DNA from: Planctomycetota bacterium
GTDB taxonomy: Bacteria; Planctomycetota; Phycisphaerae; WQYP01
Reading direction: 5' to 3'
Assembly: GCA_021831565.1 (NCBI GenBank)
Contig: JAKBMM010000001.1
Coordinates: 80,321 to 144,320, forward strand
Length of the DNA: 64,000 nucleotides
Notes under the pieces: model-generated
Told to the model about the DNA's origin: nothing
What the model saw: only the letters and a program-made list of their open reading frames with translations
The model's database searches: none
Part shown: positions 26,295 to 30,851 of the stretch, one piece after another
Position numbering within the stretch: position 1 is the stretch's first letter
Layout: each line of letters opens with the position of its first letter
Program-made: the position numbers and the translations under genes

Positions 26295-27374
26295 TTACTC
26301 CCAGTAATAGTTTCCATCATAATAATTACAATGCAAATTAGACGGGCCTTTCCACTCCACCGATCCGTCGTTATACAGAATATTCGCCCCCCGCGCGCCA
26401 CCCTGGCCCATGTGGTTGGATATGGGATAAGGTCCTGGCGAAAAAGAGGGGCCAAATCCCCAGTATGGCTTCGTCGCATTAGTAATCGTAAGATCGCTGC
26501 CCAAAATAGAATCAACCGAGCGATGGATATTGTTCTCCGATGTGAACGGATGCTGCGGATCAGGAAGATAGGTGCTTGCCGTCAGGCCCGTCCAGGGATT
26601 GGTTACATTTATGGTTGTGGATCCCGGAACCGCTCCTGTTCCTGACGGATTGGAAAACGAGCTCTGGGAAAATCCAAACCAGTAATTGTAGCTGAAGAAG
26701 ATGGCCTGTAGAAAAGCCGAACCATGCGCCGAAGTAAGGGTAGCTTGCCAAGCCGTAGGCTGTTCAAACCCATTGGCCACCCAGGTGTTGGGGTGAGTTA
26801 GATATGGCATCGGAATCCACGACATGGGAAAGGTTCGAGCTTCTTGCCCACCAGCATTGATTGGGCCGCCAACCAGACTGGTATTCCCATCAAGCGTGAA
26901 ATAACTCGACTGCGGGCAGAAAAAGACCGCCGGATTCTTGATGATGCCGGTGGTATACAACATGCCAAAACCAAATGGATAACCACCATAGTTATTCATC
27001 CCGCCACCGCCGCCGCTGCCGCTGGAGTTCATATTGCCGAACGGACCAAGGGCCTCGTGTATATATCCCCCCCCGTGATCCGCCGGAGTCCATCCCGCCG
27101 GATAAGGATAGTTTTTGTATGAAGCGTCATACTCGGCCACCCCCTGCCCGAGCGACTTCAAATTCGAAGAGCAGATCACCTGGTATGCCAGGTTTTTAGC
27201 CTTGGCCAGCGCGGGCAGCAACAGCGAGATCAGAATGGCGATGATCGAAATGACCACCAGCAGTTCAATGAGCGTGAATCCCGAGAGCCAGCGGGATCGG
27301 TTTTGGGGCTGGCGTCCGCGCCGGTCAATCGTATTGCCAGCGGATTCCTGCGTGTTGGTTGTGCGCGGCAGCAT
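26295..27374 (-). CDS. Prepilin-type N-terminal cleavage/methylation domain protein, DUF1559 (H-X9-DG) family, copy A
   Basis: [29 protein letters not shown] class-III signal / pseudopilin helix. C-terminal [21 protein letters not shown]9-DG motif. Strong AAGGAG Shine-Dalgarno. Gly-rich central insert. Confidence 0.8.
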
Positions 27375-28768
27375 GATAAGAACTCCTTCTTTACACTACT
27401 ATTGTCACAATATATCACCCTTTCTTACTGGGCGTCAAGTCAATTGCGGATTTTTTTTCTCACGAAATGGTACGGCTCGTCCGATATCCCCGACTTCTCG
27501 CCGTTCCGAGACAAATACCTAAACTCTTGCGCTCGTGAAGTTGTTACTCCCAGTAGTAGTTTCCATCATAATAATTACAATGCAAATTAGACGGGCCTTT
27601 CCACTCCACCGAGCCGTCGTTATATAGAATATTCGCCCCCCGCGCGCCACCTTGGCCCATATGGTTGGATATGGGATATGGTCCCGGCGTACCCAAACCA
27701 GCGCCGAATCCCCAGTACGGCTTTGTCGCATTAGTGATTGTAAGGTCGCTGCCCAAAATAGAATCAACCGAGCGATGAATATTGTTCTCCGATGTGAACG
27801 GATGCTGCGGATCCGGAAGATAGGTGCTTGTCGTCAGGCCCGTCCAAGGATTGGTTACATTTATGGTTGTGGATCCCGGAACCGCTCCTGTTCCTGACGG
27901 ATTGGAAAACGAGCTCTGTGAAAACCCAAACCAATAATTGTAGCTGAAATAGATAGCCTGTAAAAACGACGAACCATGCGCCGAAGTAAGGGTAGCTTGC
28001 CAGGCCGTAGGTTGTTCAAACCCATTGGCCACCCAGGTGTTGGGGTGGGTTAGATACGGCATCGGAATCCATGACATGGGAAAGGTTCGAGCTTCTTGCC
28101 CACCAGCATTGATTGGGCCGCCAACCAGACTGGTATTCCCATCAAGCGTGAAATAACTCGACTGCGGACAAAAAAAGACCGCCGGATTCTTGATGATGCC
28201 GGTGCTGTACAGCATGAAAAAACCAAATCCATAACCACCATAGGCATTCATCCCGCCACCGCCACCAGTCCCGCTCGAGTCCATACTGCCGAACGGAGCA
28301 CAGGCCTCGTGTATATACCCTCCCCCGTGATCCGCCGGACACCATCCCCCCGGGTAAGGATAGTTTTTGTATGAAGCGTTATACTCGGCCACCCCCTGCC
28401 CGAGCGACTTCAAATTCGAAGAGCAGATCACCTGGTATGCCAGATTTTTCGCCTTGGCCAGCGCGGGCAGCAACAGCGAGATCAGAATGGCGATGATCGA
28501 AATGACCACCAGCAGTTCAATGAGCGTGAATCCCGAGAGCCAACGGGATCGTTTATGGTACCTACTTCCCCGCCGGTCAATCGTATTGTTGGCGGATTCC
28601 TGCATGTTGGTTGTGCGCGTCAGCATGATAAGAACTCCTTCTCTTTACTACTATTGCCACAATGTATCACCCTTTCTTACTGGGCGTCAAGTCAATTGCG
28701 GATTTTTTTCCTCACGAATATGGTACGGCTCGTCCGATATCCCCGACTTCTCGCCGTTGCGGGAGACA
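26296..28768. repeat. Tandem direct duplication (two units of about 1.22 kb) comprising the DUF1559 gene plus its 5' UTR and promoter
   Basis: Unit 1 is about 26296-27515 and unit 2 about 27543-28768. Near-identical nucleotide stretches were visible by eye, including TACTCCCAGTA(A/G)TAGTTTCCATCATAATAATTACAATGCAAATTAGACGGGCC and the upstream TTCTTACTGGGCGTCAAGTCAATTGCGGATTTTTTT. Confidence 0.8.
27544..28626 (-). CDS. Prepilin-type N-terminal cleavage/methylation domain protein, DUF1559 (H-X9-DG) family, copy B
   Basis: About 90% identical to copy A over the whole length, with the same N-terminal pseudopilin helix and H-X9-DG C-terminus. Confidence 0.8.
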   Translation of the reverse strand: MLTRTTNMQESANNTIDRRGSRYHKRSRWLSGFTLIELLVVISIIAILISLLLPALAKAKNLAYQVICSSNLKSLGQGVAEYNASYKNYPYPGGWCPADHGGGYIHEACAPFGSMDSSGTGGGGGMNAYGGYGFGFFMLYSTGIIKNPAVFFCPQSSYFTLDGNTSLVGGPINAGGQEARTFPMSWIPMPYLTHPNTWVANGFEQPTAWQATLTSAHGSSFLQAIYFSYNYWFGFSQSSFSNPSGTGAVPGSTTINVTNPWTGLTTSTYLPDPQHPFTSENNIHRSVDSILGSDLTITNATKPYWGFGAGLGTPGPYPISNHMGQGGARGANILYNDGSVEWKGPSNLHCNYYDGNYYWE

Positions 28769-28959
28769 AAATCATGGCGCCCTTGTAATTTATGAAAAAG
28801 GTGTTAAGTTTTTCTTTCAAGAGGTACCGGGCGGAACGTTCCGCGGAACGGGGAGTATCCGAAGGCGCGGCGATTCAGCCGGATTTTGTGGTTATTTTTA
28901 CGACCGTCGCGGACGGAAAAGGGGGTATCATGATCCTTCCATACAATTGGAAAGAAAAA

Positions 28960-29454
28960 ATGAATTTTTCCAACATTCGCCAGGCGATTAACAAGAATGC
29001 GGCTGTGGCGGGCATCATTGCGGCGGTCGTTATTATTGTGATGATAGCGTATCTTATCCGGCAAATGGGTCCGCCAGCCTTTAAACCGGGGGGGGCTTAT
29101 TATTTCAATACCGCCCCGGGCAGGCATTACGGCGATATCAGCATTCATTCCGCCGCCAAATATCCGCCTTTGATCGACCCCAAGACAGGTAAGCCAACCC
29201 TTGTCTTGGCCATGTTCTATACCTGCGGAAGCTGCAAGAACAAAAAGCTGGTATATCTGCAGAAATACACCAGACAGGCTAAAGCCCTGATAAAGGAAAA
29301 AGGCTCCCGCGCCCTGCTGAAGATGGGCATTGCCGGTTTGGTGGTTCGTAAGCCGGCGAAAGGATCGCGGTGGTATCCATTGAACAGTCCGCAGGGACAA
29401 CGCATCACCACCCCGCCGAAATGCGCCAAATTGAAGCCATGTGTCCCTGGATAA
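28960..29454 (+). CDS. Hypothetical small single-pass membrane protein with Cys-containing C-terminal domain
   Basis: The ORF frame spans 28792-29454. The likely start is MNFSNIRQAINKNAAVAGIIAAVVIIVMIAYLI (one TM helix), or MILPY at 28930. The C-terminal region contains CGSCKN ... CAKLKPC. No homolog recognised. Confidence 0.4.
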   Translation: MNFSNIRQAINKNAAVAGIIAAVVIIVMIAYLIRQMGPPAFKPGGAYYFNTAPGRHYGDISIHSAAKYPPLIDPKTGKPTLVLAMFYTCGSCKNKKLVYLQKYTRQAKALIKEKGSRALLKMGIAGLVVRKPAKGSRWYPLNSPQGQRITTPPKCAKLKPCVPG

Positions 29455-29496: not shown

Positions 29497-30690
29497 ATGT
29501 CTTTTGCGCCGATCGATGAAGTGCTCGCGGCGCTGCGGCGCGGGAAAATGGTGGTGCTGGTTGACGATGAAGACCGCGAAAATGAGGGAGACCTGGTTTG
29601 CAGCGCGGAGTTTGTCACACCGGAAATCGTCAATTTCATGTTGCGCGAGGCGCGGGGGGTTTTATGCGTGGCGCTGACCCCGGAAAATTGCCGGCGGCTG
29701 GAACTCTATCCCCAAGCCACCTATAACACCGCGCCGCTGGGAACCGCCTTTACCGTAAGCGTCGACGCCCACCCGCGTTTTGGCATCACCACGGGCGTAT
29801 CCGCCCGCGAGCGGGCCGCAACCATTCAGGTTCTCATTGATCCGAAATCCACACCGAATGACCTGTGCCGTCCCGGGCACGTCAATCCGCTGCAGGCCCG
29901 ACCCGGCGGTACGCTGGAACGCGCCGGTCAAACCGAAGGATCGGTCGATCTGGCGCGGTTGGCCGGGCTTTATCCCGCCGCTGTCATTATTGAAATCATG
30001 GCTGCGGACGGCAGCATGGCCCGCCTCCCGCAGTTGCGGGATTTCTGCCGGCGGCGCCATCTGCCCCTTTGCTCCATCGCCCAGGTGATTCAGCACCGGC
30101 TGCAACGCGAGGCACTGGTGCGGCGGGTGGACTTCATGCCGATCCACACTACATACGGAAAATTTGATCTTGTTGTCTACGAAACCGTGCAGGACCCTCT
30201 TTTGCACGTGGCGTTGTGCTGCGGAGGCGTGGGCCGGCTGGATCCTGTTTCCGGAAAGCCGCTCGGGCATGAGGAACCGGTGCTGGTCCGGGTTCACTCG
30301 GAGCATCTGCTGGGCGATGTGTTCCAGGCGGATTTCACCGCAAGCGGGCGCGAACTCCAGAACTCATTGCGAATGATTCACAAACAGGGAAAAGGAGCCG
30401 TTGTGTACCTTCGGCAGGAATCGCGCGGCCTGGCCCTTTTAGGCAGGCTGCAAGATCTTAAAACGCGAGATCGGCGAACCGCGCCGCTTGGGCCACAACC
30501 AACTGGTCCCATGCGCAAGTCCCATCGTGCGGCGATGACGCGACGGGATATCGGCATCGGCGCGCAGATTCTACGTGACCTGGGGCTGACCCGGTTGATT
30601 CTGTTGACCAATCGGCCTAAGAAACTTCATGGCCTGGATGGGTTTGGGCTATCGGTCGCCGAACAGCGGCCTATTCCTACCGCGATCTAA
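29497..30690 (+). CDS. ribBA: 3,4-dihydroxy-2-butanone 4-phosphate synthase fused to a GTP cyclohydrolase II-like domain
   Basis: The RibB half shows LVDDEDRENEGDLV and conserved DHBP synthase motifs. The C-terminal half aligns to RibA (PVLVRVHSE...RQE.RG..LL...GIGAQILRDLG..LLTN.PKK), but the zinc-ligand Cys positions are replaced (see findings). Confidence 0.8.
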   Translation: MSFAPIDEVLAALRRGKMVVLVDDEDRENEGDLVCSAEFVTPEIVNFMLREARGVLCVALTPENCRRLELYPQATYNTAPLGTAFTVSVDAHPRFGITTGVSARERAATIQVLIDPKSTPNDLCRPGHVNPLQARPGGTLERAGQTEGSVDLARLAGLYPAAVIIEIMAADGSMARLPQLRDFCRRRHLPLCSIAQVIQHRLQREALVRRVDFMPIHTTYGKFDLVVYETVQDPLLHVALCCGGVGRLDPVSGKPLGHEEPVLVRVHSEHLLGDVFQADFTASGRELQNSLRMIHKQGKGAVVYLRQESRGLALLGRLQDLKTRDRRTAPLGPQPTGPMRKSHRAAMTRRDIGIGAQILRDLGLTRLILLTNRPKKLHGLDGFGLSVAEQRPIPTAI

Positions 30691-30709
30691 CGCCGGGTTT
30701 TTCGGCGAC

Positions 30710-30780
30710 TGGAGACGAGGGGAATCGAACCCCCATTTGCGCATTGCGAACGCGCCGTCCTCCCATTGAACGACGTCCCC
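30710..30780 (-). tRNA. tRNA-Ala (anticodon CGC)
   Basis: Hand-folded cloverleaf GGGGACG-TC-GTTC-AATGGGA-GGAC-G-GCGCG-TTCGCAA-TGCGC-AAAT-GGGGG-TTCGATT-CCCCT-CGTCTCC-A. The G3:U70 alanine identity pair is present. No encoded CCA. Confidence 0.8.
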
Positions 30781-30851
30781 ATTTCTCAACTGTTACCATA
30801 GTCATTTCCGCAGCCGCTGGCAAGGCCCAAGGCCGCTATGGGAACGGGATT

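What the first reader, a model, noticed from the sequence alone, without database searches (positions are those of the whole stretch)
30050..30690. RibBA whose GTP cyclohydrolase II half has lost all three zinc-ligand cysteines
Aligned to RibA, the [10 protein letters not shown]...R-C-D-C-G segment reads RVHSE-H-LLGD...F-T-A-S-G here (Cys to His, Thr, Ser). The Tyr-containing catalytic loop is replaced by a basic insertion (LKTRDRRTAPLGPQPTGPMRKSHRAAMTRRD). The downstream GIGAQILRDLG...LLTN.PKK scaffold is retained. The RibB half looks intact. The C-terminal domain therefore cannot perform the zinc-dependent ring opening of GTP and is probably a regulatory or structural pseudo-enzyme. A separate functional ribA must exist, or riboflavin synthesis starts differently.
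Basis: partly seen in the sequence, partly recalled or inferred. Interest (0 to 1): 0.5.

Follow-up and report, generated by a model that had tools for sequence, protein, structure and literature searches.

The report
RibB enzyme with dead RibA domain
This planctomycete gene encodes an intact riboflavin-pathway enzyme (DHBP synthase) fused to a GTP cyclohydrolase II-like domain that has lost its zinc site, a state already known in Proteobacteria as RibBX, so it is a new lineage of a known kind, not a new one.

Summary
ORF 29497..30690 (+, 397 aa) is DHBP synthase (RibB) fused to a GTP cyclohydrolase II (GCHII)-like domain. The three zinc ligands (E. coli C54/C65/C67) read His270/Thr281/Ser283, and Tyr105 reads Leu321. 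The segment up to Arg128 is a non-conserved, low-confidence linker, and the C-terminal tail of true GCHII is missing.

It is not an error. All 114 sequences of the surrounding clade (Planctomycetota, mostly labelled Phycisphaerae) lack all three Cys. The domain is nevertheless about as conserved as the RibB half. The RibB half keeps 57 of 61 near-universal columns.

This is the RibBX state described in Proteobacteria (A. baumannii structure 6MNZ, Shewanella, Aeromonas, Bradyrhizobium) and in Arabidopsis RIBA2. NCBI already names the orthologues DHBP synthase only.

A distance tree nests this clade among planctomycete RibBA, so the loss looks independent of A. baumannii RibBX. Unlike other Cys-less lineages, the clade keeps 16 GCHII consensus residues outside the zinc site, including Arg128. 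That leaves nucleotide binding or GTP-to-GMP hydrolysis possible.

I could not find a separate functional ribA. There is none in the window or in any fetched flank, and the rest of the genome was out of reach.

The parts
29497..30690 (+). Whole gene, 397 aa: DHBP synthase fused to a zinc-less GCHII-like domain (RibBX-like).
   Evidence: ORF list. Pfam finds two domains. The same gene was called on 24 contigs. AF2 model has mean pLDDT 86.6, and the best PDB matches are 4I14 (RibA2) and 6MNZ (RibBX).
29518..30093 (+). DHBP synthase (RibB) domain, residues 8-199; looks catalytically intact.
   Evidence: PF00926 scores 259 bits. TIGR00506 scores 213.7, above its cut-off of 177.45. The query keeps 57 of 61 columns that are >=90% conserved in 70 canonical RibBA; the four changes are A->S, D->E, V->T and Y->H. 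DDEDRENEGD, PGH and G-Q-T-E are present, and Q145 is the majority state in canonical RibBA.
30136..30672 (+). GCHII-derived domain, residues 214-392; fold retained, zinc site lost.
   Evidence: PF00925 scores 140 bits. TIGR00505 ribA scores 83.6, below its cut-off of 205.85. The query keeps 58 of 87, or 40 of 75 in a second alignment, of the conserved canonical columns. Identity within the clade is 64% (core) and 76% (C-terminal part), against 77% for the RibB half.
30304..30306 (+). His270 codon, at the position of zinc ligand Cys54 (E. coli numbering).
   Evidence: Alignments to 2BZ0 and 4I14. Among the query and its 120 best hits: H 82, N 33, C 4. All 4 Cys belong to the canonical RibBA P0114, P0115, P0117 and P0120. 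None of the 114 clade sequences has Cys here.
30337..30345 (+). Thr281-Ala282-Ser283, at the position of Cys65-Asp66-Cys67 (zinc ligands 2 and 3).
   Evidence: All 70 canonical RibBA have Cys at both ligand positions.
30457..30543 (+). Residues 321-349: Leu321 in place of Tyr105, then a variable, basic linker of low predicted confidence that replaces the conserved 23-residue segment before Arg128.
   Evidence: length 9-34 in the clade; query net charge +7. pLDDT block means are 46-61 for residues 311-350, and below 50 for 334-344. Loop identity within the clade is 15%, against 66% in canonical RibBA.
30544..30549 (+). Arg350-Asp351, equivalent to E. coli Arg128-Asp129 (the alpha-phosphate contact); retained.
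   Evidence: R128 and D129 are kept in 10 of 10 sampled clade members, while A. baumannii RibBX has Q and T.
28792..29454 (+). Small upstream ORF (TM segment, CGSC...C.....C) ending 43 nt before the gene; a possible operon partner of unknown function.
   Evidence: Homologues lie just upstream of the clade gene, on the same strand, in L085, L098, L104, L094 and L099. No Pfam hit is on record. Any link to the gene's function is not shown.

Best explanation
The gene encodes a RibBX-type protein. [quoted passage not shown] The C-terminal half descends from GTP cyclohydrolase II but has lost the CX2GX7CXC zinc site, Tyr105, the conserved segment before Arg128 and the C-terminal tail. It therefore cannot open the imidazole ring of GTP (inferred). 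It is kept under purifying selection as a non-catalytic or partly catalytic partner of the RibB domain. The likeliest role is to hold the two-domain assembly together and tune RibB activity, as reported for Shewanella RibBX. In this clade it may do so by still binding a guanine nucleotide, because 16 GCHII consensus residues outside the zinc site survive. The GCHII step would then be supplied by another gene elsewhere in the genome (inferred, not shown).
For: - Domain calls and cut-offs: only the RibB model passes its curated threshold. All bifunctional RibBA models and all ribA models fail.
- Ligand loss is shown against solved structures and holds in 114 of 114 clade members.
- All 70 canonical RibBA from many phyla keep the three Cys.
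- Literature: loss of any one Cys ends zinc binding and activity, while zinc is not required for pyrophosphate release.
- RibBX proteins lack the zinc-binding and ring-opening residues. They fail to complement an E. coli ribA mutant, coexist with a monocistronic ribA, and the X domain modulates RibB.
- The predicted fold matches 4I14 and 6MNZ, the latter titled 'RibBX, a two domain DHBPS'.
- The C-domain is constrained in the clade: 64-76% identity against 77% for RibB.
- A ribD lies 5 kb from the clade gene in L099, so the pathway downstream of GCHII exists in at least one clade genome.
Against: - No enzyme assay exists for this clade.
- No second GCHII gene was found in the 64-kb window, in the flanks of 20 clade loci, or next to two related ribD genes.
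- The clade keeps R49, H51, S52, E53, D58, R90, Q91, E92, R94, R128, D129, T149, N150, P152, K153 and K154. A. baumannii RibBX and the other Cys-less lineages have lost most of them. A purely structural role does not obviously require these residues.
Confidence: 0.75

Rival explanations
1. The C-domain is a half-active enzyme or a nucleotide sensor. It still binds GTP at the surviving magnesium/triphosphate half of the site. It either only senses GTP, coupling the ribulose-5-phosphate branch to GTP supply, or hydrolyses GTP to GMP plus pyrophosphate without ring opening.
For: - Sixteen GCHII consensus residues outside the zinc site, including Arg128-Asp129 and the LLTN.PKK motif, are kept in 8-10 of 10 sampled clade members. 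Sister Cys-less lineages and A. baumannii RibBX have lost them.
- Zinc is not needed for pyrophosphate release by GCHII, and GMP is a known side product.
- In L099 a MazG-like NTP pyrophosphohydrolase ORF overlaps the stop codon of the clade gene.
Against: - Which of these residues actually contact GTP rests on my recollection of the 2BZ0 structure paper, which I could not read.
- The 106-125 segment and the C-terminal tail are gone, and G93, G97, N100 and K101 are changed. Any of these changes may break the pocket.
- The conservation could be structural.
- The MazG neighbour is seen in one locus only.
Confidence: 0.2
2. The domain is a zinc-independent but complete GCHII. It uses another metal or no metal, so the protein is truly bifunctional and no other ribA exists.
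For: - No second GCHII was found in any sequence I could reach.
- Many GCHII residues are retained.
- ribD is present in a clade genome.
- My own knowledge: zinc-independent paralogues exist for other GTP cyclohydrolases (FolE2).
Against: - The replacements (H or N, then T/A/S/G, then S/T/A) do not form a conserved metal site; position 54 is Asn in many members.
- Tyr105 and the conserved segment after it are lost as well.
- Single Cys replacements kill E. coli GCHII.
- Only about 64 kb of a multi-megabase genome was searched.
Confidence: 0.03
3. The gene is a decaying pseudogene or an assembly artefact.
For: Some database 'GCHII-only' proteins did turn out to be frameshift or gap artefacts, so such errors do occur in these collections.
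Against: - The reading frame is uninterrupted, and the same protein is found on 24 contigs from independent assemblies.
- The same substitutions recur in 114 homologues down to 56% identity.
- The C-domain is about as conserved as the RibB half.
Confidence: 0.01

Closest known systems
RibBX of Proteobacteria (Shewanella oneidensis, Aeromonas salmonicida, Bradyrhizobium ORS285, Acinetobacter baumannii; structure 6MNZ)
   Same: The architecture is the same: a functional DHBPS N-domain plus a GCHII-derived C-domain that lacks the zinc ligands and ring-opening residues. The predicted fold matches 6MNZ (Foldseek E 4.9e-35). Both lack the C-terminal tail. Both are named DHBPS only.
   Different: Descent differs. 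On a distance tree of the RibB half, the clade's nearest relatives are other Planctomycetota sequences, and A. baumannii RibBX is not among its 28 nearest sequences. The C-domain is less eroded: 40 of 75 conserved columns against 32 of 75. It keeps E53, R90, E92, R94, R128, D129 and K153/K154, which A. baumannii RibBX has lost. It is not in a rib operon and has no FMN riboswitch. No experiments exist.
Canonical bifunctional RibBA (e.g. M. tuberculosis RibA2, PDB 4I14)
   Same: It is the best sequence and structure match (phmmer 2e-85; Foldseek 2.4e-38). Domain order is the same, and the RibB active-site motifs are the same.
   Different: RibBA has CX2GX7CXC, Tyr105, the conserved 23-residue segment and the C-terminal tail. 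The query has none of them. The query scores below every NCBIfam bifunctional cut-off.
Arabidopsis thaliana RIBA2
   Same: It is a RibBA homologue that has lost zinc-binding residues and carries a C-terminal deletion in the GCHII part, while another isoform supplies GCHII.
   Different: It is a eukaryotic, plastid-targeted protein and a recent paralogue of a bifunctional RIBA1. The loss is restricted to A. thaliana RIBA2, whereas here a whole bacterial clade shares it.
E. coli RibA Cys54/65/67 replacement mutants (Kaiser et al. 2002, as cited in PMC10366380)
   Same: They are a laboratory equivalent of the natural state: no zinc and no ring opening, with the pyrophosphate-release chemistry independent of zinc.
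   Different: The mutants keep Tyr105, the 106-125 segment and the C-terminal tail. The natural protein has lost them.
Other natural Cys-less RibBA lineages seen here (Phycisphaerales L005/L009/L010; 'Planctomycetes' P0116/118/119; Acidobacteria L014 and others; the ~360-aa family L105-L164)
   Same: All have an intact RibB half and no zinc ligands.
   Different: Each has a different pattern of further losses. The Acidobacteria keep Tyr105. The L005 type has lost the PKK motif and R94. The L105 type has lost R90-R94. The query clade is among the least eroded overall and best keeps the 16 non-zinc residues tabulated.

Membership tests
RibBX (DHBPS fused to an inactive GCHII-derived X domain) | Intact N-terminal DHBP synthase domain | tested here: met
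   PF00926 scores 2.5e-77. TIGR00506 scores 213.7, above 177.45. The query keeps 57 of 61 conserved columns, and all acidic-loop and PGH/GxTE residues are present.
RibBX (DHBPS fused to an inactive GCHII-derived X domain) | C-terminal domain homologous to GCHII | tested here: met
   PF00925 scores 5.9e-41. The domain aligns to 2BZ0 and 4I14. The predicted fold matches 4I14, 6MNZ and 2BZ0.
RibBX (DHBPS fused to an inactive GCHII-derived X domain) | Zinc-binding and ring-opening residues missing | tested here: met
   C54H, C65T, C67S and Y105L. All 114 clade members lack all three Cys.
RibBX (DHBPS fused to an inactive GCHII-derived X domain) | No GCHII activity; fails to complement a ribA mutant but complements a ribB mutant | not testable with these tools
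   This needs expression and complementation, as was done for A. salmonicida.
RibBX (DHBPS fused to an inactive GCHII-derived X domain) | A separate functional GCHII gene in the same genome | tested here: inconclusive
   There is no second GCHII in the 64-kb window. There is none in the flanks (up to 10 kb each side) of the 164 loci held, 20 of them from the clade, and none next to two related ribD genes.
RibBX (DHBPS fused to an inactive GCHII-derived X domain) | Common descent with the proteobacterial RibBX | tested here: not met
   In NJ trees of the N-domain, the nearest relatives are planctomycete sequences (P0116 type, the L005 type, canonical L008 and P0114-120). A. baumannii RibBX is not among the 28 nearest sequences. 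The tree is distance-based only, without support values.
Bifunctional RibBA (DHBPS/GCHII) | CX2GX7CXC zinc motif in the C-domain | tested here: not met
   The query reads H..G.......T.S. All 70 canonical sequences have the motif.
Bifunctional RibBA (DHBPS/GCHII) | Score above the curated NCBIfam equivalog cut-off | tested here: not met
   The best score is 415 against a cut-off of 764 (NF006806). Next is 402 against 569 (NF006803). All six bifunctional models fall below their cut-offs.
GTP cyclohydrolase II (RibA, TIGR00505 / NF001591) | Score above the curated cut-off; Tyr105 and the C-terminal tail present | tested here: not met
   The scores are 83.6 against 205.85 and 80.3 against 148. Tyr105 is Leu. 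The tail is 0-12 residues in the clade, against 22-24 in true GCHII.
DHBP synthase (RibB, TIGR00506) | Score above the curated cut-off for the equivalog domain | tested here: met
   The score is 213.7, above 177.45.

The most novel reading that the evidence does not exclude
In this planctomycete clade the zinc-less GCHII-like domain is not dead. Having kept Arg128 and 15 other GCHII consensus residues outside the zinc site, it binds GTP, and perhaps cleaves it to GMP plus pyrophosphate. It would use this to set the activity of the fused DHBP synthase. One polypeptide would then balance the two converging branches of riboflavin synthesis against the guanine-nucleotide pool.
Probability: 0.2. 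Interest if true: 0.5.

Novelty: new member of a known kind. Interest (0 to 1): 0.3.

Why it matters
Practically, JGI and similar pipelines label these proteins 'DHBP synthase / GTP cyclohydrolase II'. Metabolic reconstructions of Phycisphaerae MAGs that trust this label would credit them with a GCHII step the protein almost certainly cannot perform. They could then misjudge riboflavin prototrophy.

Evolutionarily, the data add several further Cys-less lineages beyond the RibBX known from Proteobacteria: Planctomycetota, Acidobacteria, and a large ~360-aa family of unknown taxon. In each, RibBA lacks the zinc site but keeps the domain. This argues that the X domain has a selectable non-catalytic role.

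The planctomycete forms range from mildly to strongly eroded. That makes them a natural series for working out what the X domain does, which is still unknown even in Shewanella.

Tried and rejected
1. **Stand-alone ribA in the window.** tblastn with E. coli RibA and with a canonical planctomycete GCHII domain hit only the gene itself.

2. **ribD, ribH and ribE in the window.** None was found.

3. **GTDB genome scan with the whole protein.** Only 6 Planctomycetota loci came back, so the scan says nothing about paralogues in the same genomes.

4. **Metagenome scan with a clade-specific alignment.** It returned 20 clade loci. None has a second GCHII in its flanks.

5. **Profile search with canonical planctomycete GCHII domains, hoping for short stand-alone RibA.** It returned many 200-290-aa 'GCHII-only' proteins, some labelled Phycisphaerae. 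The DNA of three of them (L165, L166, L167) shows frameshifted or N-gapped full-length canonical RibBA, so I rejected them as partners.

6. **RibD orthologues as a route to a rib operon.** The two loci inspected have no rib neighbours.

7. **FMN riboswitch upstream of the gene.** None was found at the gathering threshold or at E<=1.

8. **Literature.** Brutinel 2013 (PMC3889622) and Ren 2005 are not held. No paper on riboflavin genes in Phycisphaerae was found.

9. **His145-to-Gln in the RibB GxTE motif as a possible defect.** Rejected, because Gln is the majority state (50 of 70) in canonical RibBA.

Full report
**What is there**

The finding lies in ORF 29497..30690 on the + strand, 397 aa. 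Pfam finds a full-length DHBP_synthase domain (residues 8-199, 2.5e-77) followed by a full-length GTP_cyclohydro2 domain (214-392, 5.9e-41). Against NCBI's curated models only the RibB domain model passes its cut-off (TIGR00506, 213.7 against 177.45). All six bifunctional RibBA equivalogs and all ribA models fall far below theirs; for example TIGR00505 scores 83.6 against 205.85.

**The observation**

HMMER alignments to solved chains put the query's RVHSEHLLGDVFQADFTASG against [20 protein letters not shown] of M. tuberculosis RibA2 (4I14) and [20 protein letters not shown] of E. coli RibA (2BZ0).

I also ran a data-driven test against 70 canonical RibBA from many phyla, fetched.
- In the RibB half, 61 columns are at least 90% conserved. 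The query keeps 57; the four changes are A->S, D->E, V->T and Y->H.
- In the C half, 87 columns are conserved. The query keeps 58 and loses 29.
- The losses include the three Cys, T56, R64, D66, G93, G97, N100, K101, Tyr105 (Leu321), nearly every conserved residue between 106 and 126, Y130 and N151.
- Gln145 in the RibB G-x-T-E motif is not a defect. Gln is the majority state in canonical RibBA, 50 of 70.

The query also lacks the 22-24-residue C-terminal tail (N..YL.TKK.K.GH.L) of true GCHII.

The conserved 23-residue segment is replaced by 29 residues. In relatives this segment is 9-34 residues long with about 15% identity. Its +7 net charge is an oddity of this species, ranking 2nd of 114. 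AlphaFold gives it low confidence (block means 46-61 for residues 311-350; below 50 for 334-344) in an otherwise confident model with mean pLDDT 86.6.

**Not an artefact**

The identical protein was read on 24 contigs from JGI and ENA assemblies, and the index lists it in 49 blocks of the collection. The look-up of its 90%-identity cluster lists it from NCBI, JGI/IMG, Logan and ENA. Of the 120 best database homologues (56-94% identity), those that carry a name are labelled Phycisphaerae, Phycisphaerales or Planctomycetes. One member of the query's own 90% cluster is labelled Planctomycetia. Of these 120, 113 form one clade with the query, and none of the 114 has a Cys at any of the three positions; the commonest triplet is H-T-S, in 69.

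Inside this clade the C-domain is nearly as conserved as the RibB half. Identity is 64% in the core and 76% in the C-terminal part, against 77% for RibB. Only the linker has decayed. So the domain has been zinc-less for a long time and is still under selection.

**What it is**

This is the state described as RibBX.
- The A. salmonicida gene does not complement an E. coli ribA mutant.
- In A. salmonicida, GCHII activity comes from a monocistronic ribA.
- In Shewanella, the X domain modulates RibB by an unknown mechanism.

A. baumannii RibBX has a crystal structure, 6MNZ. It is the third-best structural match of the model, after the two chains of 4I14. Arabidopsis RIBA2 shows the same loss, including a C-terminal deletion. 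Reviews citing Kaiser et al. [quoted passage not shown] **Same kind, different descent**

In neighbour-joining trees of the RibB half, the clade's sister groups are two other Cys-less planctomycete types: P0116/118/119, and the Phycisphaerales MAGs L005/L009/L010. Canonical planctomycete RibBA (L008, P0114-120) come next. A. baumannii RibBX is not among the 28 nearest sequences. This suggests one loss inside Planctomycetota, independent of A. baumannii RibBX. The tree is distance-based and has no support values.

Canonical RibBA with all three Cys also exist in Phycisphaerae-labelled MAGs (L006, L007, L167). I could not tell whether the two forms are orthologues in different genomes or paralogues in the same genome.

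Zinc-ligand loss turned up in further lineages as well:
- Acidobacteria (Pyrinomonadaceae, Blastocatellales, Chloracidobacterium), which keep Tyr105.
- A large ~360-aa family from soil, peat and lake metagenomes, L105-L164.

**What sets this clade apart**

By the count of retained canonical columns, the query (40 of 75) is only slightly less eroded than A. baumannii RibBX (32 of 75). The identity of the survivors is telling. R49, H51, S52, E53, D58, R90, Q91, E92, R94, R128, D129, T149, N150, P152, K153 and K154 are kept in 8-10 of 10 sampled clade members. The sister planctomycete types, the L105 family and A. baumannii RibBX have lost many or most of them.

Arg128 contacts the alpha-phosphate. 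That the others line the magnesium/triphosphate half of the site is my recollection of the 2BZ0 paper, which I could not read. Zinc is dispensable for phosphoanhydride cleavage, and GMP is a normal side product. The domain may therefore still bind GTP or convert it to GMP. This is the most novel reading the data allow. I give it about 0.2.

**Where GCHII comes from: not settled**

- The window holds no second GCHII and no ribD, ribH or ribE.
- No FMN riboswitch precedes the gene.
- None of the 164 loci held at that point, 20 of them from the clade, has a second GCHII in its flanks.
- In L099 a ribD lies 5 kb upstream of the clade gene, so the step that consumes the GCHII product exists in at least one clade genome.
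- Short 'GCHII-only' proteins from planctomycete MAGs looked like the missing partner. They proved to be frameshifted or gapped full-length canonical RibBA.
- The two related ribD loci I inspected have no rib neighbours.

By analogy with every characterised RibBX organism, a separate GCHII gene is expected. It remains a prediction.

**Verdict**

The protein is a new, probably independently derived, member of the RibBX kind. Interest is modest at 0.3. The main values are correcting 'bifunctional' annotations in Phycisphaerae MAGs and offering a graded natural series for finding out what the X domain does.

Noticed in passing
window 28792..29454 (+): A small ORF ends 43 nt before the gene. The likely real start is near Met57. 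It has one hydrophobic segment and a CGSC...C.....C cysteine pattern. Homologues sit just upstream of the clade gene, on the same strand, in L085, L098, L104, L094 and L099, so the gene pair is conserved. No Pfam hit is on record.
   Followed up: partly
L099 8413..8796 (+): A MazG-like NTP pyrophosphohydrolase ORF overlaps the stop codon of the clade's RibB-X gene by 4 nt. It is seen in this locus only, not in the window.
   Followed up: no
L105-L164 (e.g. L115 10001-10180, L136, L138): A second large family of ~360-aa RibBA-like proteins lacks the zinc ligands (RVHSENLLSDVF, VLYMEP, LLSNSTRK). It comes from peat, soil and lake metagenomes. It scores below all NCBIfam bifunctional cut-offs, and its taxon was not determined.
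   Followed up: partly
L014, L016, L021, L050, L061, L067, L069: Acidobacteria MAGs (Pyrinomonadaceae, Blastocatellales, Chloracidobacterium) carry RibBA with all three zinc ligands replaced but Tyr105 kept. This is a different pattern of erosion.
   Followed up: partly
L005, L009, L010: Phycisphaerales MAGs have a much more eroded C-domain (RMHRRHLLGD; LITNSKRD). On the distance tree they are close relatives of the query clade, which suggests progressive decay after a single loss of the zinc site.
   Followed up: partly
L165 9478-10705; L166 9501-10726; L167 9481-10699: Database proteins that look like stand-alone or 'partial' GCHII (P0178, P0145, P0216) are full-length canonical RibBA genes. 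They are split by frameshifts in what look like error-prone long-read assemblies, or by a run of N. This is a trap for pathway reconstruction.
   Followed up: yes
window 26295..27374 (-) and 27544..28626 (-): Two tandem ~360-aa paralogues carry a prepilin-type N-terminal motif ([21 protein letters not shown]). No Pfam hit is on record for them. From my own knowledge they resemble the DUF1559-type proteins that are abundant in Planctomycetota.
   Followed up: no
window 30709..30781 (-): A tRNA-Ala(CGC) gene lies 19 nt after the stop codon on the opposite strand. Three more tRNAs (Trp, Thr, His) lie at 37.8-40.2 kb, beside the tuf-rpmG-secE-nusG-rplK cluster.
   Followed up: no
L170 4887..9905: A 1672-aa alanyl-tRNA synthetase gene call in a Phycisphaerae MAG has weak Y1 transposase (PF01797) hits between the synthetase segments. 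It could be an insertion inside the gene or a miscall.
   Followed up: no
L099 1888..3521; L168 10001..12084: In two related genomes ribD is followed by a peroxiredoxin (AhpC-TSA) gene, directly in L099 and after a small ORF in L168. No other rib gene is adjacent, so rib genes are scattered in these genomes.
   Followed up: no
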